In this document: one piece after another, positions 5,297-64,000 of the stretch
How positions within the stretch are numbered: position 1 is the stretch's first letter
Layout of the letters: every line of letters starts with the position of its first letter
Assembly (NCBI GenBank): GCA_964346985.1
Contig: CAYFWW010000026.1
Location: forward strand, 690-64,689
Direction of reading: 5' to 3'
From: an uncultured Actinomycetota bacterium
Lineage (GTDB): Bacteria > Actinomycetota > Aquicultoria > CAYFWW01
Length of the DNA: 64,000 nt
Made by a program: the position numbers and the translations under genes
The notes under the pieces: model-generated
Seen by the model: the letters and a program-made list of their open reading frames with translations, nothing else
The model's database searches: none
What the model was told of the DNA's origin: nothing

Positions 5297-5406
5297 TATC
5301 ATCAAGTAAGTAATTCCTATTATTCCTATCGGAAATCTTGACTATATTATGATAATAATATATCCTATTAAAACAATCGATTTAGTATATTATTCAGGTG
5401 TTTTTA

Positions 5407-7183: not shown

Positions 7184-7294
7184 CCATGCATAGAGAAAAC
7201 AAATCTAATTATTCTTATATGGATTTTAATATTTACGACGGCAAATTATTCAGAATTTTAAGATTAAATTTAGCTCGAGATTTTAAATTGACGG

Positions 7295-8062: not shown

Positions 8063-8490
8063 GATTATTTTTTTCAAAAGATACTTATCAGAAAATTATA
8101 GAACACGCTAAAAAGGAGTTTCCTAAGGAAGCCTGTGGGATTATTGGCGGAGTTGAAAACAAAGGGCTAAATGTCTTTCCATTGACCAATACCGATAAGA
8201 GCCCTATTTCATATTTTGCGTCTCCTGAAGAACAATTTAAAGTATTTAAAAAGATTAGAAAAAAAGGTTTGAGCCTAGTAGCAATATATCATTCGCATCC
8301 TCATTCAATCGCTAAGCCTTCTCAGAAAGATGTCGAGTTGGCTTTTTACCCTGATGCATTTTATATTATTATCTCCCTGGCAAATAGGGCTTTGCCTGAT
8401 TTAAAAGCTTTTAAGATTAATCAAAAGAAAGTAGAGGAAGCGGAGATTATTATAAAGGAGGAAGAAGATGCCTATTCAAATTTATATTAA
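8059..8490 (+). CDS. JAMM/MPN+ metalloprotease (Mec/HcyD-like)
   Basis: EACG ... [14 protein letters not shown] is a complete E / HxH-x7-S-xx-D JAMM motif. ATGA overlap with the upstream gene. Confidence 0.85.
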
Positions 8491-9586: not shown

Positions 9587-9625
9587 AAGTGTGCAAATAG
9601 AAATGAATCTTTTATTTGATAGTAG

Positions 9626-10882: not shown

Positions 10883-11936
10883 AATTCCAACACCAATACA
10901 AAAGCTTACTAAAGGACAAGCAATAGTCGAGGCTGAAGGCAATAACCTCTCTGACCTTATCGAAGATTTGGACAAGAAGTTTCCTGGCTTCAAAGAAAGA
11001 TTATGCGAAGAAGACGGAGAAGTAAAAAGATTTATTAATATATATATAAACGAAGAAGATATTCGCTTTCTTGACGGACTTTATACTGAGATCAAAGATG
11101 AGGATAAAGTCTCAATTATCCCGGCAATTGCCGGAGGCTCTTTAAGCGAAGATGAAGTTGAAAGGTACAGCCGCCAGATTATTTTATCTGAGATAGGAGG
11201 AAAAGGCCAAGAAAAATTACTTAATTCCTCTGTTCTGGTAGTCGGCTCAGGCGGCTTAGGTTCGCCAGTCCTTCTTTATCTGGCAGCAGCAGGCATTGGC
11301 AGAATAGGAGTAGTCGATAGTGATGTGGTTGAATTAAACAATCTTCAAAGACAGATTATTCATGATACTCAAGATGTTGGAAAAGCTAAAGTGATTTCCG
11401 CTAAAGAGACAATGTCTAAAATTAATCCTGATACTATTATTGATGTTTACGAATTAAGGCTTAATTCAGGTAATGCTTTTGAATTAATTTCAGAATATGA
11501 CCTGGTAATTGATGGCAGTGATAACTTTGCGACCAGATATCTTCTTAATGATGCTTGTGTCATGCTAAAAAAACCTTTGATTGAAGCGGCTATTTTAAAA
11601 TTTGAAGGACAAATTATGTCGGTTATACCTGAAGATGGCCCATGTTACCGTTGCCTTTTTCCCGAACCACCTCCTGCTGGATCAGTGCCAAACTGCCAAC
11701 AAGCTGGAATTCTTGGACCGGTAGCCGGCTTGTTAGGTTCACTCCAAGCTATCGAAGCTTTAAAAGTTATTTTGGGAAAAGGAGATATTTTGAAGGGGAA
11801 ATTGCTGGTTATAGATAGCTTAAGTATGAATTTTCATCTGGTTAAATTAAGGAAGAATCCTGATTGTGAAGTATGCTCAGATCAGCCGCGAATAGAAAAA
11901 CTTATTGATTATGAAGAGTGGTGCGCAAGGAGGTAA
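10869..11936 (+). CDS. MoaD/ThiS-like ubiquitin-fold domain fused N-terminally to ThiF/MoeB-type E1 adenylyltransferase
   Basis: Residues 1-90 are MoaD-like and end IIPAIAGG. A canonical MoeB N-terminus follows directly (ERYSRQIIL, VVGSGGLGSP). Zn motifs CYRC and CEVC. No rhodanese domain. Confidence 0.85.
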   Translation: MATVRIPTPIQKLTKGQAIVEAEGNNLSDLIEDLDKKFPGFKERLCEEDGEVKRFINIYINEEDIRFLDGLYTEIKDEDKVSIIPAIAGGSLSEDEVERYSRQIILSEIGGKGQEKLLNSSVLVVGSGGLGSPVLLYLAAAGIGRIGVVDSDVVELNNLQRQIIHDTQDVGKAKVISAKETMSKINPDTIIDVYELRLNSGNAFELISEYDLVIDGSDNFATRYLLNDACVMLKKPLIEAAILKFEGQIMSVIPEDGPCYRCLFPEPPPAGSVPNCQQAGILGPVAGLLGSLQAIEALKVILGKGDILKGKLLVIDSLSMNFHLVKLRKNPDCEVCSDQPRIEKLIDYEEWCARR

Positions 11937-41545: not shown

Positions 41546-41636
41546 CCATGATAATTTTAGCTTTAAACAAGAAAATTTGCCTACATTTTAATTTTTAGCT
41601 TAAAATGCAAGTATATATTCTTTTTAAGATCTAAAT

Positions 41637-42056
41637 ATGATATATAAAAACATAAAAATAATTATATTTATATCTATTTTGGTTCTAGCTGCAATTTTTT
41701 CTTTTTCTTGTGCAGGCGGAGGCTCGGAAACTGATTCAAAAGGTGCTCATGATAGGTATCTGGATGCTCCACCCAAGAAAGGAATACCGACCGTTATAGA
41801 GTTTTACGCTGATTGGTGAGAAACTTGCCGCAAGATGATACCTGTCGTGAACAGTGCGATAGAAAAATATGAGAATGAAGTCCATTTTCGAATAGTTGAT
41901 ATAGATAACTCAAAAAACAAAGCTGAGATGGATCAATATCAAGTTTCAGTCATACCTTATTTTATATTTATTGATAAAGACGGAGAGATAATTGATAAAA
42001 GAATCGGGTATATAGCACAGCAAGAATTTTTTAAATTAATTGATCAGATAAAGTAA
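41637..42056 (+). CDS. thioredoxin-fold lipoprotein, selenocysteine-containing (UxxC; Sec codon TGA 41817-41819)
   Basis: Track ORFs 41637-41819 and 41835-42056 are in the same frame. The TGA sits exactly at the first Cys position of the redox motif FYADW-U-ETC. Lipobox FSFSC. cis-Pro IPYF. Confidence 0.8.
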
Positions 42057-42186
42057 TCTTCGAATAGCAACCACTCTTAAATTTGATTTAAAGGCTTTAT
42101 TTTGCTGCTTACATATATTGAGGCGGAATAAATTCAGAAGGATGAAAATTATATAAATAAAGAATTATTTGGAGGTGAGAATAACA

Positions 42187-42438
42187 TTGGGAAAAGATGT
42201 TTTAATCTATACAACTCCATCATGACCTTACTGTCATATGGCCAAGGAATGGTTTCAGCAAAACAATGTTGAATATCAGGAAAAAGATGTCTCTGTCGAT
42301 GAGGAAGCCAGAGACGAGCTAATCCGGGAAAGCAATCAAATGGGTGTACCTGTAATTAAGGTAGACTCTGAAATAGTTGTCGGATTTGACAAAAATAGAT
42401 TGGCATCGCTTTTAGAAGTAGGGTCTGAGCAATATTAA
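42187..42438 (+). CDS. glutaredoxin, selenocysteine-containing (UPYC; Sec codon TGA 42223-42225)
   Basis: GGAGGTG RBS (42171-42177) and TTG 42187. Reading through the TGA gives MGKDVLIYTTPS-U-PYC-HMAKEWF..., a canonical Grx CPYC context. VPVIKVD and VGFD motifs lie downstream. Confidence 0.8.
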
Positions 42439-42477
42439 TCGATTCAATATTAAACGCTAAGAGAAGATATTAATAAG

Positions 42478-43095
42478 ATGAAATTAGTTATCAGCGAGGG
42501 TACTGCTTTTTATATCGGAAATGAGTATGCTGATATCATTCCCGGTAAAGAAAACGGCTTATACTATAAGGATACCAGGTATGTCAGCAAATATATATTA
42601 AAACTAAAAAATAAAAAGCCTGATTTATTAAGCGCAAAACAGATTGATTATTATTCATCATTACATTATCTGACAAACTCAGGTAAAGGTTTACCAAAAG
42701 ATTCAATTGGAATTGTAAGAAGCAGGTATGTTGGAAAAGGTCTTCATGAGGATATTGATATTACTTCCTATAGTGACAATAAACTTGAATTAGATCTTTC
42801 TCTGGAAATTGACTGTGATTTTGCAGATATATTTGAAGTCAAAAGTGAAGAGATTTTTAAAAAAGGTAGTATTGAAAAGAATTCTTCTGAAGAAGAAAGA
42901 AAGATTGAATATGTTTATAAGAGGGGAAACTTCCTTCGAAAAACCAGTATAGAATTTGTTACCAGCCAGCCTATTCAAATTAGGAATAATATAGTATCTT
43001 TTCATTTTTCAATTGAGCCTAAGCAAAGTTGGCATCTATGTATTATTTTTACATTAGGTACAGAAGAAGGAACCGAACCCACAAAATATACCTGA
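42478..43095 (+). CDS. amylo-alpha-1,6-glucosidase family, N-terminal (GDE_N-like) segment ending at an in-frame TGA
   Basis: Same frame as 43108-44577. Only TGA plus 4 codons separate them. No RBS before the ATG at 43108. Confidence 0.6.
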   Translation: MKLVISEGTAFYIGNEYADIIPGKENGLYYKDTRYVSKYILKLKNKKPDLLSAKQIDYYSSLHYLTNSGKGLPKDSIGIVRSRYVGKGLHEDIDITSYSDNKLELDLSLEIDCDFADIFEVKSEEIFKKGSIEKNSSEEERKIEYVYKRGNFLRKTSIEFVTSQPIQIRNNIVSFHFSIEPKQSWHLCIIFTLGTEEGTEPTKYT

Positions 43096-43107
43096 TATAA
43101 CTTCAAT

Positions 43108-44577
43108 ATGGGATCTGGTTTGGATTCTAAAGAGATTGAAGAATGGAAAGATAATACGCCTAAAATTAAGAGTGATTTTGATTATTTTGATCATTCTTAT
43201 AATCAATCAATTAAAGATATAGCAGCTCTTAGAATATATGGTTTGGAATTATCGAAGGAGAAAACTATTCCTGCAGCTGGAATCCCTTGGTTTGTTACTA
43301 TATTTGGAAGAGATAGCTTGATAACTGCTTTTCAAACATTAATTCTGGGGACAGAATTATGCCGGGGGGTCCTGGAAACATTAGCTGCTTATCAGGGAAA
43401 AAAAATTGATAACTACCGTGAGGAAGAGCCTGGTAAGATACTTCATGAGATGCGATTTGGCGAGTTAGCAATTTTGCAGGAGATTCCACATACTCCATAT
43501 TATGGAACTATTGATGCCACACCATTGTTTATAATTCTTTTAGGTGAATATTTTGATTGGACCGGAGATTTAAATTTTATTGAAAAGTTGTTAGAGACAG
43601 CAGAGAAGGCACTTAATTGGATGGATAATTATGGAGATATGGATGGAGACGGCTACCTAGAATATCAAAGGAAGACAGATAAAGGCTTAATTAATCAAGG
43701 CTGGAAAGATTCAGGAAACGCTTTGGTGTACGCGGACGGCAAATTAGCTGAACCTCCTATTGCTCTGTGTGAAGTTCAGGGCTATGTTTATCTGGCTAAG
43801 AAAAAATTAGCTCGAATCTACGACAGTTTGAACCGGTCAGAAGAGGCCAAAAAACTAAGGGATGAAGCTGAAAAATTAAAGCTAAGGTTTAACCATGATT
43901 TTTTCCTTGAAGATGAGCAATTCTTTGCTATGGCCTTAGATGGGAATAAGAAAAGAGTTGACGCAATCACTTCAAATGCCGGCCAGTTATTATTTTCTGG
44001 CATAGTTACAGAAAAAAAAGCTGAAAAAATCAAGGATAGATTATTTAAGGAAGATATATATTCCGGTTGGGGCATAAGGACAATGAGTATGTTAAATAAG
44101 GGGTATAATCCAATCAGTTATCATAACGGTTCAGTCTGGCCTCATGATAATTCAATCATCGCCGCTGGCTTAAGGTTATATGGGTTTTATCATGAAGCAG
44201 CTGAGATTTGCCAAAATATGCTTGAAGCATCCTCTTTTTTTAATAATTTTCGCCTACCTGAATTATTCTGTGGATTTGAGAAAGGCAATTATGTTTTCCC
44301 TGTCGAATATCCAACAAGTTCAAGCCCTCAGGCTTGGGCTTCAGGTTCGATCTCTCTTTTTTTAACTACTATACTGGGTTTAAAACCCAGGCTTTCAGAG
44401 AATAAGGTTTTCCTCAAACCGTATTTGCCGGCAAATATGAAAAACCTGTTTTTAAGAAATTTAAAAATAGGGCCAAATATTTTGGATATAGAAACCTCCA
44501 GGATAGGGGAAGAGACTGATATAAGTGTTGATGTGGTAAGTGGTGATGTTGAAGTCATTGCTGAACCTGGAAGTTAG
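43108..44577 (+). CDS. amylo-alpha-1,6-glucosidase / glycogen debranching (alpha/alpha)6-barrel catalytic segment
   Basis: WFVTIFGRDSLITA, GKILHEMRFGE, YYGTIDATPLF, NQGWKDS, HNGSVWPHDN. The joined 42478-44577 product would be 699 aa. Confidence 0.75.
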   Translation: MGSGLDSKEIEEWKDNTPKIKSDFDYFDHSYNQSIKDIAALRIYGLELSKEKTIPAAGIPWFVTIFGRDSLITAFQTLILGTELCRGVLETLAAYQGKKIDNYREEEPGKILHEMRFGELAILQEIPHTPYYGTIDATPLFIILLGEYFDWTGDLNFIEKLLETAEKALNWMDNYGDMDGDGYLEYQRKTDKGLINQGWKDSGNALVYADGKLAEPPIALCEVQGYVYLAKKKLARIYDSLNRSEEAKKLRDEAEKLKLRFNHDFFLEDEQFFAMALDGNKKRVDAITSNAGQLLFSGIVTEKKAEKIKDRLFKEDIYSGWGIRTMSMLNKGYNPISYHNGSVWPHDNSIIAAGLRLYGFYHEAAEICQNMLEASSFFNNFRLPELFCGFEKGNYVFPVEYPTSSSPQAWASGSISLFLTTILGLKPRLSENKVFLKPYLPANMKNLFLRNLKIGPNILDIETSRIGEETDISVDVVSGDVEVIAEPGS

Positions 44578-51189: not shown

Positions 51190-51246
51190 TTTTATTTTTT
51201 AAAAAGACATTAAATAATTATACTTTAGGTATTGGAAGTTAAGATT

Positions 51247-51966
51247 ATGGGAAATGACGTATCTATTTTTATAGCTTTTGGCGGAGGATTGATATCATTT
51301 TTTTCAGCATGTGTCTTACCACTTATCCCGGCTTATATCTCTTTTATAACCGGCCTTTCTCTAGAAGAAATAACTTCTGATGAGCATAAGATAGCAAAGA
51401 CTGGCAAAATTATTATAAGTGTTCTTCTTTTTATACTTGGCTTCTCCCTTATCTTTACTATTTTGGGTGCTTCGGCCAGCATTGCCGGAAAGTTAATATT
51501 CAGTTATCGTTACATTTTAGTAAAGGTTGCCGGTCTAATAATCATAATCTTTGGGCTCCACCTGACTGGCTTATTTAGAATAAGTTTCCTGAATTTTGAA
51601 AAGAGGATTGATTTTTCAAAAGGAAGAAAGATATCTTATATTACCTCCTTCTTGGTCGGGTTGGGATTTGCAATCGGCTGGACACCTTGCGTAGGCCCAA
51701 TATTAGCTTCTGTTTTACTTCTGGCAAGCACAACCGAGTCAGTTTCACAGGGAATGTTCTTGTTGTTTATCTACTCTATGGGCCTGGGGCTCCCTTTTCT
51801 TGTTGTCGGTTTGATGGTAAATAAATTCTTGGCTTATTTTAAAAAGATTAAGAAATATCTTGGAGCAATTGAGTTAATCAGCGGTCTTTTCTTAATAATT
51901 ATTGGATTATTGATTTTCTTTGATAAATTAAACTTGATAAGCAATTATTTAACCAGGATTCTTTAG
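51247..51966 (+). CDS. ccdA: cytochrome c biogenesis/thiol-disulfide transporter CcdA (DsbD-family TM domain)
   Basis: FSACVLPLIPAY and WTPCVGPILASV, the two conserved Cys-Pro helices. Track start TTG 51232 is an alternative. Confidence 0.85.
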   Translation: MGNDVSIFIAFGGGLISFFSACVLPLIPAYISFITGLSLEEITSDEHKIAKTGKIIISVLLFILGFSLIFTILGASASIAGKLIFSYRYILVKVAGLIIIIFGLHLTGLFRISFLNFEKRIDFSKGRKISYITSFLVGLGFAIGWTPCVGPILASVLLLASTTESVSQGMFLLFIYSMGLGLPFLVVGLMVNKFLAYFKKIKKYLGAIELISGLFLIIIGLLIFFDKLNLISNYLTRIL

Positions 51967-51967
51967 A

Positions 51968-52822
51968 TTGGAAATCACTGTATATACCAGGAAAAACTGC
52001 AAACTTTGTCAGGAAGCAATTAGCAAGATAAAAAACTTAAACATTCAATTTGATTTTGACTTAATATTAATTGATATTGATAATTTGGGAAATGCCAAAG
52101 GGGAATACCTTGACAAGATTCCCCTGATCTATATAAATGGACAAGAAGTATTTCGCTACCATTTGGATGATAGAAAGTTGTTGCAGATTCTAATGAATAA
52201 ACCCTTAAATCCTAGAACAAGAATTATTGAAAAGCGCTACTCTCGTTTTGCGCCTTTTTATGACCTATCCGAGTTTATTGTTGAAGAAATTTACTTTAAA
52301 AAATGGCGGGAGAAAATACTTGGCAATCTTAAGGGCGTAAAGATATTAGAAGTAGGAGCCGGGACTGGCAAAAATTTTCCCTACTATCCAGCGGATAAAG
52401 AAGTGACAGCGATCGATATCAGCCTGCCTATGCTGAGAAGAGCTGAAAATAGAATTAGAAGCTCTAAAGCTGTGATAAATTTGGCTATTATGGATGCAGA
52501 GAATCTTGCCTTACCCGATAATTCTTTTGATGCTATTATCACTACCTATGTCTTCTGTTCTGTTCCTGATCCCGTAAGAGGCTTAAAAGAACTTAAACGG
52601 GTTTGTCGGCCAGATGGAAAGATTTACCTTCTGGAGCATGTATTAAGCACCAAGCTATTTATGAAGACCTTTATGAACTGGCTTAATCCTCTTACAGTAA
52701 GCCTGTTTGGATATAATATTAACCGCCGGACGGTTGATAACATTAAAAAAGCTGGCCTTACCATAATTGAAGAAAAAAATCTTAGGTCGGACATATTTAA
52801 GTTTATTATTGCTAAACCATAA
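51968..52822 (+). CDS. glutaredoxin-like (DUF836-type CxxC) domain fused to class I SAM-dependent methyltransferase
   Basis: N-terminus ITVYTRKNCKLCQEA ... IPLIYINGQE. C-terminus ILEVGAGTGKN, DISLPML, FDAIITTYVFCSV, PDGKIYLLEH. Confidence 0.75.
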   Translation: MEITVYTRKNCKLCQEAISKIKNLNIQFDFDLILIDIDNLGNAKGEYLDKIPLIYINGQEVFRYHLDDRKLLQILMNKPLNPRTRIIEKRYSRFAPFYDLSEFIVEEIYFKKWREKILGNLKGVKILEVGAGTGKNFPYYPADKEVTAIDISLPMLRRAENRIRSSKAVINLAIMDAENLALPDNSFDAIITTYVFCSVPDPVRGLKELKRVCRPDGKIYLLEHVLSTKLFMKTFMNWLNPLTVSLFGYNINRRTVDNIKKAGLTIIEEKNLRSDIFKFIIAKP

Positions 52823-53779: not shown

Positions 53780-54529
53780 TTGTATCCTGTTTTAATAGAA
53801 ATAGGGTCAATAACAATATATTCCTGGGGTTTTATGTTAGCCGTGGCAATAATAATGGCCTTTATTGTTGCCCGTAATGAAGCTTCTAGATATGGCATCC
53901 AAAAAGATAAAATGCTGGATTTATTTTTTTACCTTTTCTTTTTCGGATTGGCCGGTGCTCGCCTGGTATTTATAATATTCGAAGCTGGATATTATCTAAG
54001 GCATCCATTAAGTATATTTAATATCAGCGGTGGTGGTCTTGCTATTCACGGTGCTATCCTGGGTGGATTCTTTGGGGGATATATCTTTAGCAGAAGGCAT
54101 GATATTAGGCTTGCTTTATTAGCAGATATAATTGCCCCTGCTTTGATTTTAGGTCAAGCCATAGGTAGAATTGGATGTTTCTTAAACGGAGATAGTTTTG
54201 GTAAACTGACATCGGTTTCTTGGGCAGTAGTATTTGAAGGTGTGCCTGGGCTTAGGCATCCTACTCAACTATATGAGGCTTTTTTTAATCTGGGTTTATT
54301 TATCTTGATTATCTTAATAAGAGACAAGAAACCATTTACCGGCTCCCTCTTTATTATTTATTTAATCGGTTATTCAATAATAAGAATATTTGTTGAAATT
54401 TTTCGGGAAAGCCAGATCTTCTTTGGACCGGTGACTTATGCTCAGGCTGCTAGTGTAATTATTATTTTGGTTTCAGTCTATCTACTTTTTAACCAGAGAA
54501 AAAAAATAAATAGCAACCCTAATAATTAA
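53780..54529 (+). CDS. lgt: prolipoprotein diacylglyceryl transferase
   Basis: IGSITIYSWGFMLA, HGAILGG, GQAIGRIGCFLNGD, HPTQLYEA. Confidence 0.9.
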   Translation: MYPVLIEIGSITIYSWGFMLAVAIIMAFIVARNEASRYGIQKDKMLDLFFYLFFFGLAGARLVFIIFEAGYYLRHPLSIFNISGGGLAIHGAILGGFFGGYIFSRRHDIRLALLADIIAPALILGQAIGRIGCFLNGDSFGKLTSVSWAVVFEGVPGLRHPTQLYEAFFNLGLFILIILIRDKKPFTGSLFIIYLIGYSIIRIFVEIFRESQIFFGPVTYAQAASVIIILVSVYLLFNQRKKINSNPNN

Positions 54530-54946: not shown

Positions 54947-54995
54947 TTATATATTTTTGAGTTTAGATAAATTAAAAATTTTAGGAGTGATTAAA

Positions 54996-55235
54996 ATGTC
55001 TAAGGTAGAAAAAGAATTTCCCATTATAGGTATGAGTTGTGGAGGTTGTGCAGCTAACATTGAAAGGAGTCTTCTAAAGGAGGATTATGTTGAAAAAGCC
55101 AGTGTTAGCATTTCCACAGAAAAAGCTATTGTTGAATATGAAGATTCAAAACACGGGGAGAAAGATATTGTAGCCCTTATTGAGAATCTTGGTTATAAGG
55201 TTCCAGGTAGTATTAGGAGTGAGAAGAATGCCTAA
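54996..55235 (+). CDS. copZ: copper chaperone CopZ (HMA domain)
   Basis: [22 protein letters not shown] before ATG 54996. The track start TTG 54957 is less likely. Confidence 0.85.
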
Positions 55236-57615
55236 GAAAAAAATTGAAATTCCTATTCTAGGAATGAGCTGCGCTAGTTGTGCATCTAAGATAGAAAAAA
55301 AATTGAATAGCCAGGATTTTGTAGTCAATGCCACTGTTAATTTCGCTACCGAAAAAGCTGTTGTCGAATATGATGACTCTAAAGGTGGAGAAGCGGATAT
55401 TATTAATATAATAAAGGACCTGGGATACAACGTTTATACTGAAAATATAGAGCTGTTGATTTCCGGTATTTCATGTGCTTCATGTGTTCAGAAAATTGAA
55501 AAAGCACTTAATAGCTTGTCGGGAGTTATTAATGTTAGTGTCAATCTAGCAAATAATAAAGCCAAAGTTGATTTCGTACCAGGCGTAATTACCCAAGATG
55601 ACATAAAGAAAAAAATTAGAGATGTCGGCTATCAGGTTGTTGAGGAAGAAATCCAAGATTCAGATACAGATCAGGATATTGAGACTAAAGCACGCCTAAA
55701 AGAAATTGGACGGCAAAAAAGATTAGTTATTATTGGGGCATTGCTTAGCATCCCTATTATGATTATTAGTTTTTGGCCTGAATTTTTCTGGCAAAATTAC
55801 GTTTTATTCGGATTGGCAACGCCGGTTCAGTTTTTTTTAGGTTGGCAATATTATCGCAATTCTTATAAATCACTTCGCCATGGTAGTGCTAATATGGATG
55901 TCTTAATTGCTATGGGTACATCTGCTGCTTATATTTACAGTTTAGCAACAACTTTTATTATTTCTGGCGATGTCTATTATGATACCGCTGTTGTTATTTT
56001 AACTTTGATAACTTTGGGAAAATACCTGGAAGCATCAGCTAAAGGACGCGCTTCAGAGGCAATCAAGAAATTACTTGGACTGGCTCCAAAAACAGCCCGT
56101 ATTATTAGAGATGGTGTGGAAGAGGATATCCCGGTTGAAGAAGTCAGGATCGGAGACCTAATTATAGTAAGACCCGGTGAAAAATTTCCGGTTGATGGTA
56201 TCGTTAGAGAGGGCAGCTCTTTTGTAGATGAATCGATGCTTACAGGAGAAAGCATTCCTGTTGAGAAGAATGTCGATAACGAAGTGGTTGGAGCAACTCT
56301 AAATAAGAATGGATTAATAAAATTCGAAGCAACAAAAGTTGGCAAAGATACAGTTCTGGCTCAGATAGTTAGGATGGTTCAAGAAGCACAAGGCTCAAAA
56401 GCTCCTATTCAAAGGCTGGCAGATACTGTCTCTGGTATTTTTGTACCTATAGTTATAGTTATCGCACTTCTGACATTTGTAGGTTGGAATTTTTTTGCAA
56501 CAGGAGAAAATGCCTTTACGCATGCTCTTTTAAATATGGTTGCAGTATTAGTTATTGCCTGCCCCTGTGCTTTGGGACTGGCAACACCAACAGCCATCAT
56601 GGTGGGAACAGGAAAAGGAGCAGAGTTAGGTATTTTGATTAAAGGCGGGGAAATTCTAGAGAAGGCGCATAAGGTAAACACAATTATTTTTGATAAAACC
56701 GGCACTTTGACCAAAGGCCTGCCGGCAGTAACAAATATATTATCCATAAATGGTCAAACCGAAGACGAAATTTTGCGTTTGGCAGCTTCAGCAGAAAAGG
56801 GTTCAGAGCATCCAATAGGAGAAGCAATAGTATTTGAAGCCGATAAACGAAAACTATCATTAATCGAGTTAAAGGATTTTAAAGCCGTAGCAGGACATGG
56901 TATTAAGGCTAGTCTGAATGGCCAGAGGATTCTGATTGGAAATAAAAAATTAATGATTGATCAAGGCATAGACATTGAGAATTTAAGGCGAGCAGCAGGT
57001 CAGTTGGAGGATCAAGGCAAAACAGCTGTTTATACAGCTGTTAATAATGCTGTTGAAGGATTAATCGGAGTAGCCGACACCTTAAAGAAGGACTCTAAGG
57101 ATGCTATTGACCAGATAAAAAAACTCTATATTGAACCTATCATGATAACTGGTGACAACCAACGCACTGCCAAAGCTATTGCTTCACAAGTAGGAATTGA
57201 AGATGTTTTAGCTGAAGTTCTTCCTGAGGACAAAGCTAACCAAATAAAAAAATACCAGAGTGATCAAAAAGTAGTGGCCATGGTAGGTGATGGCATTAAT
57301 GATGCTCCGGCTCTGGCTCAAGCTGATATCGGGATTGCGATTGGCACTGGAACAGATGTAGCCATAGAAGCCTCTGACATAACTCTTATCGGTGAAGACT
57401 TGAAGGGAGTCTCTACAGCTGTTCAGTTAAGCAAAAGTACAATGAGAACGATTAAACAAAACCTGTTTTGGGCATTTTTCTACAACACAGTTCTCATACC
57501 TTTAGCAGTTATAGGCTTGATTAATCCGATGCTGGCTGCAGCAGCCATGGCTTTCAGCTCAGTCTCTGTTGTCACCAATTCACTTCGCTTGAAGCGTTTT
57601 AAACTTCAGCTTTAG
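55228..57615 (+). CDS. copA: copper-translocating P1B-1 ATPase CopA (two N-terminal HMA domains)
   Basis: GMSCASC and GISCASC, TGES, CPC ([11 protein letters not shown]), [18 protein letters not shown] 55228 overlaps the copZ stop. Confidence 0.9.
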
Positions 57616-57640
57616 ATTAAAAATGTTTTACAAATAGGAA

Positions 57641-57680
57641 AGGAGAGGATTGATCATAAGATCAATCCTCTCCTTTTCTG
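57641..57680 (+). terminator. rho-independent terminator after copA
   Basis: AGGAGAGGATTGATC (57641-57655), loop ATAA, GATCAATCCTCTCCT (57660-57674), then TTTCT. Confidence 0.85.
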
Positions 57681-57726
57681 ATAACTCTCCTTATTTATTA
57701 AGGTTTTTTTATTAAATCCCGATATT

Positions 57727-57743
57727 TACTATTGTATGTAGTA
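57727..57743 (+). promoter_or_regulatory. TACTAY-N5-GTAGTA operator, copy 4 (TACTAT TGTAT GTAGTA)
   Basis: 18 nt upstream of the ATG at 57761. Confidence 0.5.
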
Positions 57744-57760
57744 GCCTATTCTTAAAAACT

Positions 57761-58348
57761 ATGGAAGAAAATTATTTAGATAAGACTATAAAGATTTCAA
57801 AAAGAGATAGAATTATTGTACTTCTGGTTACAACTTTTCTATCCTTTGTCATTCTAAGGCCATATATATCTGATTTAAATGTCTGGCGTGGTGATACTTT
57901 TATGTTAGTTAATGATGCCAAGCAGGGTATAAGATCTTACAAGAAAGCAGTTCTAGTTTATCAAAGAAACGGGGAAGCTTGGGACGGCCTTGGATACTTT
58001 TATTTATTTCAGAAAAAGTTGAATCTTGCAGAAGAAGCTTACTTAAAGGCTATAAAGTATAATCCTGATGAACCGATGAATTATTACTTTCTAAGTTTTA
58101 TCTATTATAAACAAGAAAAATACAGACTGGCTATAAAGTATGCTGAAAAATCAATCAAAAGAGATTCTGAAAATCTTTTACCATACAATGTATTGGCTAA
58201 TTCTTTTGAAAGAACTGGCCATTATGAGGAAGCCATCAAATCCTGGAAGAAGATTAAAAAAATATCACCTAAATCAGAGGGTGCTGATTCAAGGATAAAA
58301 GAACTGGAAAATAAATTAAGTATTTCTGAGGAGGTAAAAGAAAATTGA
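57761..58348 (+). CDS. tetratricopeptide-repeat protein with N-terminal TM helix
   Basis: TM helix IIVLLVTTFLSFVIL. TPR-like AWDGLGYFYL.../AEEAYLKAIKYNPD/ YEEAIKSWKK. Confidence 0.65.
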   Translation: MEENYLDKTIKISKRDRIIVLLVTTFLSFVILRPYISDLNVWRGDTFMLVNDAKQGIRSYKKAVLVYQRNGEAWDGLGYFYLFQKKLNLAEEAYLKAIKYNPDEPMNYYFLSFIYYKQEKYRLAIKYAEKSIKRDSENLLPYNVLANSFERTGHYEEAIKSWKKIKKISPKSEGADSRIKELENKLSISEEVKEN

Positions 58349-58671
58349 AATTTAAAAATTCACAGCTTTACATAACTAAGGTTCATTGCCCTGATTGTGT
58401 AGAAGATTTGATAAATGGTGTCCTGCTTAAGGAAAAAGGAATTATAAAAGCTGTTTTTGAAGATAGAAAATCTCTATTATCTATTGACTATGATTCAGAA
58501 CTGATTGGAGAAAAAAGGATGAAGGAGATAATTGCCGATATGGGGTACGGCTTTATTGAAGACAAAGGCGAAATTAAAAATATTGAAAAAAATTATTGGT
58601 TAAATTGGATTGTCATCGTAATAGTAATGGCTTTTTTAATTTTCCTAATAATTTGGTCGAATAATCTTTAA
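58345..58671 (+). CDS. HMA-like (CxxC) metal-binding domain protein with C-terminal TM anchor
   Basis: YITKVHCPDCVEDLINGV...IADMGYG (beta-alpha-beta-beta-alpha-beta pattern). TM helix WIVIVIVMAFLIFLII. TTGA overlap and GAGGAGG RBS. Confidence 0.6.
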   Translation: MKFKNSQLYITKVHCPDCVEDLINGVLLKEKGIIKAVFEDRKSLLSIDYDSELIGEKRMKEIIADMGYGFIEDKGEIKNIEKNYWLNWIVIVIVMAFLIFLIIWSNNL

Positions 58672-58682
58672 GGTTGGTTATT

Positions 58683-59372
58683 ATGTCTGTTACCGATTTT
58701 GCAAGTTCATTTCAGTCAAATCCGCTATATGCGATTGTTGCAGCTTTTGTAGCTGGTTTAATTACTAGCCTTGGGCCATGTACTTTTTCCAGGGCGATTG
58801 TATTAATTGGACATATAGCCAGGGAAAAAAATGTAAGTAGGAATAGAGGATTTTTTATATCATTTATTTTTTTAATCGGTTTATTAATTGCCTATGTTCT
58901 TTATGGATTATTCGGTTATTTAGCCAAAAATGTCAATTTGATCAGCACAAATATCTTTTATTTGGCTGGAGTGATTGCTGTATTGATGGGGTTGCATTTT
59001 GCAGAGATAATTAAAATGAGGCTACCGTTAAGTAGCACAAAACTTTTAAAAGCAAGAAATATCTATTCAAAATATCAGGGAACTGGCGGAGGATTGATAA
59101 TGGGCTTTAGCTTTGGGCTAATGCTCTGTCCATGTTGCTTGCCGGGTTTACTGTTTATTATAAGTTTTACTTTTATCCAGGGTAATTTTATCTATGGTTT
59201 ACTGCTTTTATTTGTCTATGTAATCGGACATGGCCTTCCATTACTTGGGATTGGAACATTCAGCGGAGCAATTACCGGACTTAAATCAGTACAGAAATAT
59301 AGTGTTTATGTTAACTTGATAGTTGGAATTTTAATATTCATTATTGGGCTTCTTTTCTTATGGACAGTCTAA
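58683..59372 (+). CDS. CcdA/DsbD-family thiol-disulfide transporter paralogue
   Basis: LGPCTFSRAIVL and LCPCCLPGLLF conserved Cys helices, 6 TM helices. Track start TTG 58674 is an alternative. Confidence 0.7.
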   Translation: MSVTDFASSFQSNPLYAIVAAFVAGLITSLGPCTFSRAIVLIGHIAREKNVSRNRGFFISFIFLIGLLIAYVLYGLFGYLAKNVNLISTNIFYLAGVIAVLMGLHFAEIIKMRLPLSSTKLLKARNIYSKYQGTGGGLIMGFSFGLMLCPCCLPGLLFIISFTFIQGNFIYGLLLLFVYVIGHGLPLLGIGTFSGAITGLKSVQKYSVYVNLIVGILIFIIGLLFLWTV

Positions 59373-61604: not shown

Positions 61605-61774
61605 AAAAAGAGATATTGCAATTAATTCTTTTCAAAGTGAAAAACTCAATGATTATATTTAAATATTTAATTGGGAAATAAATTTTTTTATAGGAATATT
61701 TAACAATAAAATCAAGTTATTTATAATATTATTAGTTATATAGGTGTAATTGCATATTTTGGGAGGTGTATAAA

Positions 61775-62854
61775 TTGAATGAGTATTTTATTTCTCTATT
61801 AGAAAGTCGCGGAGTCAGCAGGCGCGATTTTCTTAAATTTTGTGCTAGTATGGCAGCTTTGTGGGGAATCAGCGATACATTTATACCCCAGATTGCAGCT
61901 GCTGTAGAGAAAGCGGTAAAAAAACCGTCGGTAGTCTATCTTGAATTTGCCCGATGCACTGGTTGTACTGAATCGATTATTAAGATTTCAAATCCTTCTA
62001 TAAATCAGCTGGTATTAGATATTCTTTCTTTTGATTATTATGAAACTATAATGGCTCCTGCTGGTGACCAGGCAGAGAAAAGCTTGGAAGACACAATGAA
62101 AGAAGGAGGTTTTGTCTGTTTAATCGACGGGTCAATACCGACTGGCGAAGACGGTATTTTTTACCAACAAAGAGGAAAATCAGCAGAAGAAAAAGTAAGA
62201 GAGGTAACCGATAAAGCTAAAGCTGTCATTGCTGTAGGTACTTGTGCCACTTATGGCGGTATACCTGCAGCTGCTCCTGATCCGACAGAAGCAAAAGGAG
62301 TAGATCAGGTGGTTGATAAGGCAGTTATTAATGTATCTGGATGCCCACCTAATCCGGAATGGGTTGTAGGAACTGTAATTTATTATTTGACTTATAATGA
62401 GATTCCTGAGCTGGATAAATATGGCCGGCCAAAATTCATTTATGGACAAACTATTCATGAAAGATGCCCGCGGCGTTCTTTTTTTGATGAAGGCAAGTTT
62501 GTCGAGGTTCTAGGTTCAAAAGAAGAAGAATTAGGTTATTGTCTGTATAAGTTGGGATGCAAGGGACCAGATACCTTTGCCAACTGTCCAACACAACGTT
62601 GGAATGACAAAATTAACTGGTGTATTGGTTCTGGTCAGTGCATAGGTTGCACAGAACCGGATTTCTGGGACAGATTTGCCGGTTTTTATAAACCCCTGGA
62701 TGAAGTTAATGTGGCAGGAGTAAGGACAAACTCTGACACCATTGGGAAAGTTCTTGGTGGAGCTGCGGCAGTAGGCATAGGAGCCCATTTTATTGGGCAG
62801 GCGGCAACAGGCAGGCTTGGAAAAGGTGGTCCGAAAAAGGGAGGTGAAGAATAA
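61775..62854 (+). CDS. [NiFe] hydrogenase small subunit, Tat-exported (group 1-like)
   Basis: Twin-arginine SRRDFLKF. Cluster motifs CTGCTES, GTCATYGG, GCPPNP, HERCPR, CLYKLGCKGPDTFANCP, NWCIGSGQCIGCTEPDFWD. GGGAGGTG RBS then TTG 61775. The track start GTG 61766 lies inside the RBS. Confidence 0.9.
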   Translation: MNEYFISLLESRGVSRRDFLKFCASMAALWGISDTFIPQIAAAVEKAVKKPSVVYLEFARCTGCTESIIKISNPSINQLVLDILSFDYYETIMAPAGDQAEKSLEDTMKEGGFVCLIDGSIPTGEDGIFYQQRGKSAEEKVREVTDKAKAVIAVGTCATYGGIPAAAPDPTEAKGVDQVVDKAVINVSGCPPNPEWVVGTVIYYLTYNEIPELDKYGRPKFIYGQTIHERCPRRSFFDEGKFVEVLGSKEEELGYCLYKLGCKGPDTFANCPTQRWNDKINWCIGSGQCIGCTEPDFWDRFAGFYKPLDEVNVAGVRTNSDTIGKVLGGAAAVGIGAHFIGQAATGRLGKGGPKKGGEE

Positions 62855-64000
62855 TGGCTGAGAGAGTAGTTGTTGATCCTGTAACCCGGATTGAAGGAAG
62901 TCTAAAAATTGAAGTTGAGATAGAAAATGGAAAGGTCAAAGAGGCATGGTCATCATGTCAGCTTTTTCGAGGTATTGAGATTATTTTAAAAGGAAGAGAT
63001 CCTCGTGATGCCTGGCATATAACCCAGAGAATATGCGGCGTCTGTCCTGAACCGCATGGAACAGCCTCGATTCTAAGCATGGAAGATTCTTTTGATGTAA
63101 GGCCGCCTGAAGCCGGACGAATTATCCGAAATCTATTACTGGGAAGCAATTATCTACATTCGCACATTCTTCACTTCTATCATTTAACGGCTCTTGATTT
63201 TGTAGATGTGGTTGATGCTTTAAATGCCAAACCGACTGATTCATATCTTAAAGAGGTTCATGCCAAATTGAATTCTTATGTGGAGGCAGGCCAGTTAGGG
63301 CCATTTGCCAATGGTTATTGGGGCCATCCGCAATATAAGTTGCCATCTGAAGTAAATTTACTTGCAGTAGCTCATTATCTTGAGGCTCTTCAGATGCAGG
63401 CTAAAGCTTCCAATATGGAAGCAATCTTCGGTGGAATACAACCTCATCAAAAAGGAATGGTTGCGGGGGGAGTAGCCGGAAGGCCTACCCTAAACGATTT
63501 GAAAGAGTTCAAGTACCGCCTCCATGAAGTTGCTGATTGGATAGAAAATGTATATTTGCAAGATGTTCTAGCGGTTGCTCCTTTCTATCTTGATTGGGCA
63601 GCAATTGGAGGAGGTTATGCTAATTTCCATTCTTTTGGAGTCTTTCCTGATAAATCATGGGATCCGGTCAAGCAATTATTGCCCCGTGGTGCTATCCTCG
63701 ATGGCAAGATTACAGAAGTTATGGACAACAAACCGGAAGAGATTACTGAATATGTAAAATATGCCTGGTTTACAGATGAATCAGGAGGCATGAATCCTAA
63801 AGATGGCAAGACTGAACCTGATTATACCGGTTATGATGTCAAAGATAAGTACACCTGGTCTAAAGCGCCTCGATGGAAAGACAAACCAGTAGAAGCTGGC
63901 CCCTTAGCCCGTATGGCTGTTGCCTATGGCCGGGGGGATAAAGTTGCTGTTGAACTAATTGACTCTACCTTAAAAGCCCTTGGCGTCGAAGGTAAACCTG
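62854..64000 (+). CDS. [NiFe] hydrogenase large subunit, 3'-truncated at window edge (absent from ORF track)
   Basis: ATG 62854 overlaps the small-subunit TAA (TAATG). Frame is open to base 64000. VDPVTRIEG, RICGVCPEPH (N-terminal Ni-ligand motif), HFYHL, GGV. Confidence 0.9.
   Translation, partial: MAERVVVDPVTRIEGSLKIEVEIENGKVKEAWSSCQLFRGIEIILKGRDPRDAWHITQRICGVCPEPHGTASILSMEDSFDVRPPEAGRIIRNLLLGSNYLHSHILHFYHLTALDFVDVVDALNAKPTDSYLKEVHAKLNSYVEAGQLGPFANGYWGHPQYKLPSEVNLLAVAHYLEALQMQAKASNMEAIFGGIQPHQKGMVAGGVAGRPTLNDLKEFKYRLHEVADWIENVYLQDVLAVAPFYLDWAAIGGGYANFHSFGVFPDKSWDPVKQLLPRGAILDGKITEVMDNKPEEITEYVKYAWFTDESGGMNPKDGKTEPDYTGYDVKDKYTWSKAPRWKDKPVEAGPLARMAVAYGRGDKVAVELIDSTLKALGVEGKP

What the first reader, a model, noticed from the sequence alone, without database searches (positions are those of the whole stretch)
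41637..42056. Selenocysteine (UxxC) thioredoxin-fold lipoprotein split into two ORFs by the track
ORFs 41637-41819 and 41835-42056 share one frame, separated only by TGA (41817-41819) and five sense codons. Read through, the product has a lipoprotein signal (lipobox FSFSC) and a complete thioredoxin fold. The TGA falls exactly where the nucleophilic Cys of the WCxxC motif belongs: VIEFYADW-[TGA]-ETC-RKMIPV. The cis-Pro strand (IPYF) lies downstream.

TGA is a genuine stop elsewhere in this window (for example 6274-6276, 8060-8062, 9584-9586). This is therefore site-specific recoding, not a reassigned code.

A weak SECIS candidate is present: CUGU/ACAG stem with CGUGA loop at 41842-41854, with the loop starting 29 nt after the first base of the UGA.

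An exported Sec-thioredoxin is a natural periplasmic partner for the two CcdA paralogues at 51247 and 58683.
Basis: partly seen in the sequence, partly recalled or inferred. Interest (0 to 1): 0.75.

Follow-up and report, generated by a model that had tools for sequence, protein, structure and literature searches.

The report
Selenocysteine thioredoxin-like lipoprotein gene
The two short ORFs are one real gene for an exported, lipid-anchored thioredoxin-like protein whose active-site cysteine is replaced by selenocysteine; this belongs to a known class of bacterial selenoproteins, but it is the first of three consecutive genes with an in-frame TGA, one of which may be new.

Summary
ORFs 41637-41819 and 41835-42056 share a frame and are joined by TGA 41817-41819. 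Read through, the product is a 139-residue thioredoxin (Pfam PF00085, E=6.5e-17) with a lipoprotein signal.

- **Active site.** The TGA aligns with the first Cys of WCGPC.
- **Genetic code.** TGA ends 8-9 of 46 Pfam-supported genes in the window, so the code is not reassigned.
- **Strains.** Three other assemblies of the same species (98.6-99.9% identical) keep the TGA.
- **Family.** A DNA pattern scan found 96 orthologous W-TGA-xxC genes in GTDB genomes, mainly Anaerolineae and Coriobacteriia.
- **SECIS.** These genes carry a hairpin 22-40 nt after the UGA with clear covariation.
- **Sec machinery.** No sel gene or tRNA-Sec lies in the window. A same-species contig shows a canonical [NiFeSe] hydrogenase site (DP-TGA-IAC-AVH) about 385 nt past the window's end.

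UxxC thioredoxin-like selenoproteins are already catalogued, so this is a new member of a known kind. The CcdA partnership is plausible but not supported by synteny.

The next two genes also carry an in-frame TGA at a conserved Cys: a YruB-type glutaredoxin (known family) and a glycogen-debranching-enzyme homologue (apparently undescribed).

The parts
41637..42056 (+). Complete gene for the Sec-containing thioredoxin-like lipoprotein (139 codons including UGA; stop TAA 42054-42056)
   Evidence: The same gene structure is present in L001, L270 and L271.
41637..41711 (+). Signal peptide with lipobox F-S-F-S-C; the Cys25 codon is 41709-41711
   Evidence: The lipobox rule is matched in the window, in strain L270 and in orthologues L082, L086, L088 and L089. 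The Lgt gene is at 53780-54529.
41817..41819 (+). In-frame UGA, read as selenocysteine (U61) at the nucleophilic position of W-U-E-T-C
   Evidence: It aligns with the first Cys of WCGPC. It is kept in 3 other assemblies and occupies the same codon in about 100 orthologues.
41826..41828 (+). Resolving Cys64 codon of the UxxC motif
41842..41854 (+). SECIS candidate A: CUGU / loop CGUGA / ACAG. It lies in the register of the family-wide covarying hairpin (UGA+22..+40) but keeps only 4 of 7 pairs (-1.9 kcal/mol).
   Evidence: The same CGUGA loop occurs in the hydrogenase hairpin of the same species.
41842..41862 (+). Alternative SECIS candidate B: CUGUCGU / loop GAACAGU / GCGAUAG (7 bp, -7.6 kcal/mol). 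It is the minimum-free-energy fold and shares its 5' arm with A.
41955..41957 (+). cis-Pro codon (P107 in V-I-P-Y-F)
   Evidence: Aligned with the I-P-T of thioredoxins
42187..42438 (+). Adjacent glutaredoxin-like gene (YruB family). It has a TTG start behind RBS GGAGGTGA and an in-frame UGA at 42223-42225 in S-U-P-Y-C.
   Evidence: TIGR02196, 95.7 bits against cut-off 88.55.
42478..44577 (+). Glycogen-debranching-enzyme homologue (GDE_N_bis + GDE_C) interrupted by an in-frame UGA at 43093-43095, at a conserved Cys. A hairpin lies at 43101-43141 (apical loop GGUUU 43117-43121).
51232..51966 (+). CcdA/DsbD_TM paralogue 1, a candidate membrane electron conduit
   Evidence: also (weak match to DsbD and to the middle of the TsoB profile)
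58674..59372 (+). CcdA/DsbD_TM paralogue 2. It is preceded by a CcmH/CycH-like TPR gene (57761-58348) and a 108-aa ORF.
53780..54529 (+). Prolipoprotein diacylglyceryl transferase (Lgt), needed to lipidate Cys25
   Evidence: PF01790, E=2.4e-66
61766..64000 (+). [NiFeSe] hydrogenase small subunit (61766-62854) and the start of the large subunit (62855 to the window end). The large subunit's Sec codon lies about 385 nt beyond the window.
   Evidence: L393 shows DP-TGA-IAC-AVH and matches NF033181 at 604 bits against cut-off 600.

Best explanation
Positions 41637-42056 are a single gene for an exported thioredoxin-fold lipoprotein with a W-U-E-T-C active site.

**Shown**
- The UGA sits where homologues have the nucleophilic Cys.
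- It is conserved within the species and across a large orthologous family.
- That family carries a covarying hairpin just downstream of the UGA.
- UGA is otherwise a stop codon in this genome.
- The same species encodes a canonical [NiFeSe] hydrogenase UGA.

**Inferred mechanism**
1. Translation starts at ATG 41637.
2. At UGA 41817, SelB·GTP·Sec-tRNA(Sec) is recruited by the coding-region hairpin that starts 25 nt downstream. This is either the CGUGA-loop hairpin 41842-41854 or the overlapping 7-bp form 41842-41862. Sec is inserted.
3. The preprotein is exported through the Sec translocon.
4. Lgt attaches a diacylglycerol to Cys25, the signal peptide is cleaved, and the roughly 114-residue thioredoxin domain is held on the outer face of the cytoplasmic membrane by a Gly/Ser-rich tether.
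5. U61 attacks substrate disulfides. C64 resolves the mixed selenosulfide.
6. The oxidised U-C pair is re-reduced by electrons passed across the membrane by a CcdA paralogue, giving a 'split DsbD' arrangement.

**Likely clients, least certain**
- Apocytochrome c or CcmH of the System I maturation machinery encoded nearby (CcmE and CcmF).
- Oxidised extracytoplasmic proteins, as for the pneumococcal Etrx lipoproteins.

The gene is probably co-transcribed with two further UGA-containing genes (glutaredoxin-like and GDE-like).
For: - **Reading frame and fold:**
- **TGA as a true stop:** 8-9 of 46 Pfam-supported genes.
- **TGA within the species:** kept in L001 (1 SNP in about 1540 nt) and in L270/L271 (98.6% identity). 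The frame and lipobox upstream of the TGA are also kept.
- **C-terminal fragments:** phmmer of the C-terminal part against 1.84e9 representatives returns many roughly 74-aa 'proteins' that begin at the Met five codons after the UGA. In all 7 checked, the DNA shows an upstream in-frame TGA. Five of these match the lipobox rule.
- **Pattern scan:** 97 hits in GTDB genomes for a pattern of about 38 bits of information, for which I estimate a handful of chance hits. 96 are true orthologues.
- **Hairpin covariation:** 6.6 of 7 pairs form in 99 Sec genes, against 1.6 of 7 in 79 Cys homologues. Pair 26:36 is UA 53 / CG 42 / GC 3 / UG 1. Pair 27:35 is GC 68 / AU 30 / GU 1. Both involve synonymous sites.
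- **Structure test:** The count of structure pairs gives 89.9% of cells paired against 22-42% when the register is slid. The covariation score is 0.328 against 0.164±0.017, with 0 of 500 shuffles reaching it.
- **Cys-form homologue:** P0008 has the same size and a signal-peptide-like N-terminus ending L-P-G-C. It did not match the lipobox rule as written.
- **Sec use by the organism:** DP-TGA-IAC-AVH in the hydrogenase large subunit of the same species, and U-P-Y-C in the neighbouring glutaredoxin gene.
- **Export and recycling genes:** Lgt and two CcdA genes in the window; CcmE and CcmF downstream.
- **Relatives:** the nearest Cys relatives are cyanobacterial TxlA-like proteins with EFYADWCE[VT]C. 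The whole protein aligns to positions 428-571 of the TsoB rhodanese/DsbD-fusion profile.
Against: - No selA, selB, selD or tRNA-Sec in the 64 kb window or in the strain contigs read.
- The window's own SECIS is poor. It forms 4 of 7 family pairs (-1.9 kcal/mol). The MFE fold of 60 nt has z=-1.8. No Rfam SECIS family matches, even at E<=10.
- The covarying family positions lie in coding sequence, and part of the pattern was imposed by the search pattern (CC, R, T, GT, R, A, Y).
- There is no Shine-Dalgarno sequence before ATG 41637.
- The functional link to CcdA is not supported by gene order. The CcdA genes are 9 and 17 kb away. DsbD_TM is not among the 25 commonest Pfam families in 87 immediate neighbours of 49 orthologous loci.
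- Scores for ResA, DsbE and TlpA models are far below their cut-offs.
Confidence: 0.82

Rival explanations
1. It is a genuine Sec-thioredoxin lipoprotein, but its role is not CcdA-fed cytochrome c maturation. It could serve extracytoplasmic oxidative-damage repair (as Etrx does with MsrAB), or copper or other metal handling (TlpA/Sco-like reduction of metal-site cysteines).
For: - One orthologue (L086/L087) lies directly downstream of a CsoR-like gene, an RseC/MucC-family gene and an HMA P-type ATPase.
- The window has a CsoR-HMA-CopA cluster next to CcdA2.
- Thioredoxin-fold lipoproteins that work with CcdA and MsrAB2 are documented in S. pneumoniae (PMC3914529).
- Neighbourhoods of orthologues are not conserved, as expected for a general-purpose reductant.
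Against: - No exported Msr gene was seen in the window.
- The copper-cluster adjacency occurs in only 1 of 49 immediate neighbourhoods (one E1-E2 ATPase).
- CcmE and CcmF are present in the same region.
Confidence: 0.35
2. The UGA is decoded, but not as selenocysteine. It could be read by near-cognate read-through (Trp or Cys), or Cys could be inserted by the Sec machinery when selenium is scarce. The product would then be an ordinary CxxC or WxxC protein.
For: No Sec machinery gene could be examined. The window's hairpin is weak.
Against: - The UGA lies exactly at the redox Cys in four genes of this species: the thioredoxin-like, glutaredoxin-like and GDE-like genes and the NiFeSe hydrogenase.
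- The hydrogenase family is an established selenoprotein family and matches NF033181 above its cut-off.
- The orthologous family keeps a covarying SECIS-type hairpin that Cys forms lack.
Confidence: 0.07
3. It is a pseudogene or assembly error: a TGT/TGC-to-TGA nonsense change has inactivated a normal thioredoxin-like gene.
For: A single base change turns a Cys codon into TGA. Gene callers split the gene.
Against: - An identical TGA is found in assemblies from three other read sets (ERR2564001, ERR14940462, ERR14940463), with both halves open and the lipobox kept.
- The same codon is TGA in about 100 species.
- Two adjacent genes have a TGA at their own conserved Cys.
Confidence: 0.03
4. They are two independent small genes: a 60-residue lipopeptide and a 73-residue thioredoxin fragment.
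For: Both ORFs start with ATG.
Against: - The 73-residue part lacks the first strand, the first helix and both active-site residues of the fold.
- There is no ribosome-binding site before 41835.
- The Met at that position is simply the conserved Met of WCGPCKM.
- Cys-containing homologues are single proteins of about 138 aa.
Confidence: 0.02

Closest known systems
Sec-containing thioredoxin and 'Trx-like' UxxC selenoprotein families of bacteria (Trx PF00085 UxxC; GOS 'Trx-like 1' COG0526 and 'Trx-like 3' cd02950/TxlA-like)
   Same: Thioredoxin fold, with Sec replacing the N-terminal Cys of CxxC and a SECIS hairpin in the coding region just after the UGA. These are listed in PMC13188914 and PMC2398784. 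'Trx-like 3' is described there as weakly similar to cd02950 (which I recall as the TxlA family). That fits my finding that the nearest Cys relatives are cyanobacterial TxlA-like proteins.
   Different: The characterised example, Treponema denticola Trx, is cytoplasmic to my knowledge. This protein has a lipoprotein signal, and the dipeptide between U and C is E-T. I could not run CDD, so identity with 'Trx-like 3' is not shown. It scores below the cut-off of TIGR01068 (61 against 96.8 bits).
Streptococcus pneumoniae Etrx1/Etrx2 with CcdA1/CcdA2 and MsrAB2
   Same: Surface-exposed thioredoxin-family lipoproteins recycled through CcdA membrane proteins (PMC3914529). This matches the architecture and predicted topology here.
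   Different: Etrx proteins use Cys, sit in operons with ccdA and msrAB, and belong to the larger ResA/TlpA-like subclass. Here the domain is of minimal thioredoxin size, uses Sec, and is not adjacent to ccdA or msr genes.
HCF164/TxlA (cyanobacteria and plastids) and CcmG/ResA/CcsX of cytochrome c maturation
   Same: These are membrane-tethered extracytoplasmic thioredoxin-like reductants fed by CcdA/DsbD. The active-site context EFYADW-C-E-[VT]-C is nearly identical to the window's EFYADW-U-E-T-C. CcmE and CcmF are present in this organism.
   Different: They are tethered by a transmembrane helix, not a lipid. They use Cys. NCBIfam scores for slr1796-type, ResA, DsbE and TlpA models are all far below their cut-offs.
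C-terminal (gamma) thioredoxin domain of DsbD and of the selenoprotein TsoB (rhodanese/DsbD fusion, NF045694)
   Same: The whole window protein (residues 3-138) aligns to the last 144 positions of the TsoB profile. The window's CcdA paralogues align to its central membrane part. This suggests the pair is a 'split' version of such a fusion.
   Different: The score is 49 bits against a cut-off of 805, so it is not a TsoB. The domains are separate genes. The Sec positions of TsoB (UxxxxU) differ.

Membership tests
Bacterial selenoprotein gene (UGA recoded to Sec) | In-frame UGA at a position where homologues have Cys | tested here: met
   The UGA aligns with the first Cys of WCGPC, with the Cys of P0008 and with the Cys of 79 TxlA-like genes.
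Bacterial selenoprotein gene (UGA recoded to Sec) | Stem-loop (bSECIS) shortly downstream of the UGA, with G/U in the apical loop | tested here: inconclusive
   For the family the feature is clearly met: a covarying 7-bp helix at +22..+40 with loop N-G-U-N-R. For the window there are only 4 bp in that register (-1.9 kcal/mol), or a shifted 7-bp hairpin (-7.6 kcal/mol). There is no Rfam hit.
Bacterial selenoprotein gene (UGA recoded to Sec) | Genome encodes selA, selB, selD and tRNA-Sec | not testable with these tools
   None is found in the window or strain contigs. The rest of the genome could not be fetched. Indirect support comes from the canonical NiFeSe hydrogenase UGA in the same species.
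Bacterial selenoprotein gene (UGA recoded to Sec) | UGA conserved among strains and orthologues, while UGA is otherwise a stop | tested here: met
Thioredoxin family (Pfam PF00085) | Profile score above the gathering threshold; W-C/U-x-x-C motif; cis-Pro | tested here: met
   61.9 bits against 23.5; motif and I-P aligned.
Thioredoxin TrxA equivalog (TIGR01068) | Score at or above the curated cut-off of 96.8 bits | tested here: not met
   61 bits
Bacterial lipoprotein | N-terminal signal with lipobox and invariant Cys; Lgt present | tested here: met
   The lipobox rule is matched, with Cys25. Lgt is at 53780-54529. LspA was not looked for. No dedicated predictor was available.
CcmG/DsbE, ResA, TlpA thiol:disulfide oxidoreductases | Score at or above the curated cut-offs (123-230 bits) | tested here: not met
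   DsbE 20.6, ResA 39.4, TlpA 19.3 bits. The mature domain is of minimal thioredoxin size.
TxlA/HCF164-like (cd02950; GOS 'Trx-like 3') | CDD domain assignment; membrane-anchored luminal or periplasmic thioredoxin with WCE[VT]C | tested here: inconclusive
   The best tblastn relatives in GTDB are cyanobacterial EFYADWCE[VT]C proteins at 30-44% identity. NF038096 scores 33.8 bits against 140. CDD is not available.
TsoB rhodanese/DsbD fusion selenoprotein (NF045694) | Score at or above 805 bits; three-domain architecture | tested here: not met
   49 bits, over the C-terminal domain only
YruB-family glutaredoxin-like protein (TIGR02196), for the neighbouring gene 42187-42438 | Score at or above 88.55 bits; C/U-P-Y-C motif | tested here: met
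   95.7 bits. All 120 metagenome genes returned carry U-P-Y-C.

The most novel reading that the evidence does not exclude
Genes 41637-44577 form a three-gene selenoprotein operon. Its third member is a selenoprotein family not yet described: a glycogen-debranching-enzyme (GDE_N_bis + GDE_C) homologue. In it, Sec (UGA 43093) replaces one Cys of a pair of co-occurring cysteines (C188 and position 206). This would make a selenosulfide redox switch on a carbohydrate enzyme. The adjacent Sec-glutaredoxin would be its dedicated reductant, by analogy with the Sec-Grx/Sec-MsrA pair of Clostridium oremlandii. The Sec-thioredoxin lipoprotein would be the exported arm of the same selenium-dependent thiol system.
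Probability: 0.4. Interest if true: 0.6.

Novelty: new member of a known kind. Interest (0 to 1): 0.42.

Why it matters
**Annotation.** Gene callers split or truncate this gene everywhere. The public protein collections hold dozens of roughly 74-residue 'thioredoxin' fragments that are really C-terminal halves of Sec proteins. Recognising the family, with its simple DNA signature and its covarying SECIS, would repair about 100 annotations in Anaerolineae, Coriobacteriia and relatives.

**Biology.**
- Selenium-dependent thiol chemistry is placed outside the cytoplasmic membrane by the lipoprotein route.
- The low-GC organism here uses Sec in at least two, and probably four, genes within about 25 kb.
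- If the GDE-like gene is confirmed, Sec use would extend to a glycoside-hydrolase-family protein. That would be unusual, because nearly all known selenoproteins are oxidoreductases.

Tried and rejected
- **Word-indexed protein search** with the Cys-substituted full protein found nothing. The same happened for the GDE N-terminal ORF.
- **Full-length query rejected.** I therefore searched with the exact C-terminal part.
- **Exact 50-mers from the window and from L272** were absent from GTDB genome contigs. The source genome could not be reached and sel genes could not be sought.
- **Taxonomy attempt** with the 2-oxoacid:ferredoxin oxidoreductase alpha subunit gave only about 50% identity hits scattered over archaea, CPR bacteria and Actinomycetota. 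The lineage stays unresolved.
- **The search for related loci** with an alignment of C-terminal halves failed because it had no conserved stretch.
- **One contig look-up** was lost to a wrong GTG start.
- **Rfam** found nothing at gathering thresholds. At E<=10 there were only two chance sRNA hits.
- **RNAalifold** recovered only the three innermost pairs. The named 7-bp helix was tested with pair counts instead.
- **Neighbourhood analysis** of 49 orthologous loci found no conserved partner. I therefore do not claim an operonic link to CcdA.
- **Reassigned genetic code (tables 4 or 25)** was rejected on stop-codon usage.
- **tblastn of the GDE junction** against all 393 fetched loci found only the same species.
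Full report
**1. The observation**

ORF 41637-41819 and ORF 41835-42056 are in one frame. They are separated by TGA 41817-41819 and five sense codons.

Read through, the product is MIYKNIKIIIFISILVLAAIFSFSC|AGGGSETDSKGAHDRYLDAPPKKGIPTVIEFYADW-U-ETCRKMIPVV...VSVIPYFIFIDKDGEII...QIK.

- With Cys at the TGA it matches Pfam Thioredoxin at 61.9 bits (cut-off 23.5).
- In phmmer alignments to solved thioredoxins the TGA column is the first Cys of WCGPC. I106-P107 is the cis-Pro.
- The N-terminus fits the lipobox rule with Cys25. An Lgt gene lies at 53780-54529.

**2. This is not a reassigned code, an error or a pseudogene**

- TGA ends 9 of 46 Pfam-supported genes of the window. That is 8 if the GDE N-terminal ORF is set aside.
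- The locus was found in other public assemblies of the same species. L001 (ERR2564001) differs by 1 SNP in about 1540 nt. L270 and L271 (ERR14940462 and ERR14940463) are 98.6% identical and syntenic. All keep the TGA, the open frame on both sides and the FSFSC lipobox.
- The 100 nt after the TGA are identical in L270.

**3. A large orthologous family with the same UGA**

A phmmer search with the exact C-terminal part against 1.84 billion representative proteins returned many roughly 74-residue 'proteins'. They begin at the Met five codons after the UGA. That Met is the conserved Met of WCGPCKM, which gene callers take as a start.

For seven of them I fetched the DNA. Every one has an in-frame TGA at the same codon. 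Five match the lipobox rule (L082 VLSSC, L086 LSTSC, L088 VLSSC, L089 LLSAC, and the window itself). L090 is cut at its 5' end, L092 did not match the rule, and L091 was not tested.

A Cys form of the same size exists: P0008, with a signal-peptide-like N-terminus ending LPGC and DFYADWCGAC. It did not match the rule as I wrote it.

I then scanned the GTDB genomes with the DNA pattern TGGTGA-N6-TGY-N6-ATG-N3-CCN-RTN-GTN-RAY.
- The pattern carries about 38 bits, for which I estimate a handful of chance hits. It gave 97 hits, and 96 are true W-U-xxC thioredoxin-like genes.
- They come mostly from Anaerolineae and other Chloroflexota, and from Coriobacteriia and other Actinomycetota.
- By a motif screen, about half have a signal-peptide or lipoprotein-like N-terminus. 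The other half are fused behind a rhodanese domain.

**4. The SECIS**

In 99 distinct Sec genes a helix pairs positions 22-28 with 34-40, counted from the U of UGA. The loop is N-G-U-N-R.
- Pair 26:36 is UA 53 / CG 42 / GC 3 / UG 1.
- Pair 27:35 is GC 68 / AU 30 / GU 1.
- No sequence has either of these two pairs unpaired.
- Positions 26 and 35 are synonymous third positions of Pro and Asp/Asn codons.

On a 48-sequence alignment, 89.9% of cells pair, against 22-42% when the register is slid. The covariation score is 0.328 against 0.164±0.017 in shuffles, and 0 of 500 shuffles reach it. Cys-containing TxlA-like genes form 1.6 of the 7 pairs, against 6.6 for Sec genes.

Two caveats apply. The search pattern fixed several of these bases, and the Cys controls differ in peptide sequence here.

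The window is the weakest family member. Only 25-28/34-37 pair (CUGU/ACAG, loop CGUGA, -1.9 kcal/mol). An overlapping 7-bp hairpin, 25-31/39-45 with loop GAACAGU, is more stable at -7.6 kcal/mol and is the MFE fold. I cannot say which one is used.

Its loop begins with the same CGUGA. No Rfam family matches.

**5. Does the organism decode Sec?**

The window has no tRNA gene. None of the Pfam-scanned genes is a sel gene. The source genome could not be reached.

A 37.5-kb contig of the same species (L393) runs past the window's end.
- The hydrogenase large subunit, which starts at window 62855, stops there at a TGA in ...VHGFDP-TGA-IACAVHVIEPK.... This is the classical DPUxxCxxH site of [NiFeSe] hydrogenases, as I know it from the literature.
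- The truncated product matches NCBIfam NF033181 'NiFeSe_hydrog' at 604 bits (cut-off 600). It covers profile positions 2-488 of 507.

This is strong indirect evidence for the Sec machinery.

**6. Two more UGA genes directly downstream**

*(a) Gene 42187-42438.* It has a TTG start behind GGAGGTGA and encodes MGKDVLIYTTPS-U-PYCHMAKEW...
- It passes TIGR02196 (YruB-type glutaredoxin-like) at 95.7 bits against 88.55.
All are true.
- That family has its own helix, GCGAAAGA-GUW-UCUUUCGC, at +18..+36. The window keeps 5 of its 8 pairs.

*(b) ORFs 42478-43095 (GDE_N_bis) and 43108-44577 (GDE_C) share a frame across TGA 43093.*
- The 119 closest homologues from other organisms are nearly all single proteins of about 660-765 aa (two of 615-629 aa, one marked partial), covering 89-100% of the joined query. 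The solved archaeal-type Gde 7vma is also a single chain.
- The TGA column is Cys in 15 of 17 aligned homologues (consensus PKY-x-C-x-SF) and in 80 of 119.
- That Cys co-occurs with Cys188: 70 have both, 28 have neither, 21 are mixed. Fisher's test gives 1.6e-10, not corrected for phylogeny.
- A hairpin follows at 43101-43141 (-10.9 kcal/mol, apical loop GGUUU, z=-1.4).
- Between strains both halves are under purifying selection (14 synonymous against 7 non-synonymous changes). The only change in the hairpin turns a U·G pair into U-A.
- I found no description of such a selenoprotein in the 2026 catalogue or by text search. No NCBIfam selenoprotein model fits it.
- I found no second species with a TGA form. 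This remains a candidate.

No terminator-like site, and no + strand promoter-like site, was found between the thioredoxin and glutaredoxin genes. A promoter-like site lies at 41577-41606. The three genes may therefore be one transcription unit.

**7. Function**

*Shown.* The protein has a thioredoxin fold, a UxxC site and an export/lipidation signal.

*Inferred.* It acts as a reductant on the outer face of the membrane and is recycled by CcdA.

*Support.*
- The closest Cys relatives are cyanobacterial TxlA/HCF164-type proteins with the same EFYADW-C-E-[VT]-C context. By established knowledge these are CcdA partners.
- The protein aligns end to end with the C-terminal thioredoxin part of the NCBIfam TsoB rhodanese/DsbD-fusion profile. 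The window's CcdA genes align with its membrane part.
- CcmE and CcmF lie downstream, and a CcmH/CycH-like TPR gene precedes CcdA2.

*Against.*
- The CcdA genes are 9-17 kb away.
- Immediate neighbours of 49 orthologues show no conserved partner and no DsbD_TM among the 25 commonest families.
- Scores for ResA, DsbE and TlpA are far below their cut-offs.

An Etrx-like repair role (PMC3914529) or a metal-related role (L086 lies next to a CsoR-like gene and an HMA P-type ATPase) is equally open.

**8. Comparison and novelty**

UxxC thioredoxin, glutaredoxin and several 'Trx-like' selenoprotein families are catalogued (PMC13188914). The GOS study lists 'Trx-like 3', weakly similar to cd02950, with 212 sequences (PMC2398784). 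This gene is therefore a new member of a known kind.

The lipoprotein anchoring and the family-specific SECIS were not mentioned in the texts I searched ('lipoprotein', 'signal peptide' and 'periplasm' have no occurrence in the review). They are refinements, not a new principle.

The Sec-Grx next to another Sec gene has a precedent in Clostridium oremlandii Grx1/MsrA (Kim et al. 2011, cited in PMC4479559).

**9. Verdict**

- Confidence is about 0.8 that this is a translated Sec lipoprotein, and about 0.4 for the CcdA-fed reductant role.
- Interest is moderate (0.42), mainly because of the three-gene UGA cluster and the possible new GDE-type selenoprotein.

Noticed in passing
window 42187-42438 (+), UGA 42223-42225: The adjacent YruB-type glutaredoxin-like gene has an in-frame TGA at the first Cys of CPYC (S-U-P-Y-C). 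Gene callers keep only the 66-aa part after the UGA. It has a strong RBS (GGAGGTGA) before the true TTG start. The family is abundant in metagenomes and has its own helix, GCGAAAGA-GUW-UCUUUCGC, after the UGA. The window keeps 5 of 8 pairs.
   Followed up: yes
window 42478-44577 (+), UGA 43093-43095, hairpin 43101-43141: A glycogen-debranching-enzyme homologue is split by an in-frame TGA at a Cys that is conserved in most single-chain homologues and co-occurs with Cys188. Both halves are under purifying selection and the TGA is kept in 3 other assemblies. This is a possible undescribed selenoprotein family. No second species with a TGA form was found.
   Followed up: partly
window 61766-64000 (+); L393:14014-16700: This is a [NiFeSe] hydrogenase. 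The small subunit and the start of the large subunit are in the window. In a same-species contig the large subunit has DP-TGA-IAC-AVH about 385 nt beyond the window's end, followed by the hairpin GGUUCA-CGUGAU-UGAACC.
   Followed up: yes
L094, L096, L097, L099 and about 45 other loci of L093-L189: In Coriobacteriia and other Actinomycetota the orthologous W-U-xxC thioredoxin domain is fused behind a rhodanese domain (active-site loop Y-C-x-x-G-x-R-S). This architecture differs from the rhodanese and TsoB forms listed in the 2026 review, where Sec lies elsewhere.
   Followed up: partly
L393:18359-20588 (beyond the window's 3' end): CcmE and CcmF (System I cytochrome c maturation) follow the hydrogenase and an Fe-dependent repressor. 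No CcmG-type thioredoxin was seen in the stretch read.
   Followed up: no
window 51968-52822 (+): Directly after CcdA paralogue 1 lies a fusion of a glutaredoxin-like DUF836 domain with a SAM methyltransferase. It weakly resembles the arsenite-methyltransferase selenoprotein models. Upstream are DUF2085, a MacB-type ABC transporter and an FtrD-like protein.
   Followed up: no
window 5398-11936 (+): A sulfur-assimilation cluster: sulfite-reductase-like gene, PAPS reductase, TauE exporter, two PLP (PALP) enzymes of which one has an N-terminal ThiS-like domain, and a ThiS-ThiF fusion. This looks like a protein-thiocarboxylate (CysO/MoeZ-type) route to Cys or Met.
   Followed up: no
window 54957-59372 (+); L393:6925-11612: The gene order is CsoR-like repressor, HMA copper chaperone, CopA-type P-type ATPase, CcmH/CycH-like TPR protein, a 108-aa ORF with no family, then CcdA paralogue 2. 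One orthologue of the Sec-thioredoxin (L086) sits next to a similar CsoR/ATPase cluster.
   Followed up: partly
whole window: The lineage could not be placed. The window is 32-39% G+C and encodes anaerobe-type enzymes (2-oxoacid:ferredoxin oxidoreductase, rubrerythrin, a hydrogenase). The best GTDB relatives of a 589-aa oxidoreductase subunit are only about 50% identical and spread over unrelated phyla. Exact 50-mers are absent from GTDB representative genomes.
   Followed up: partly
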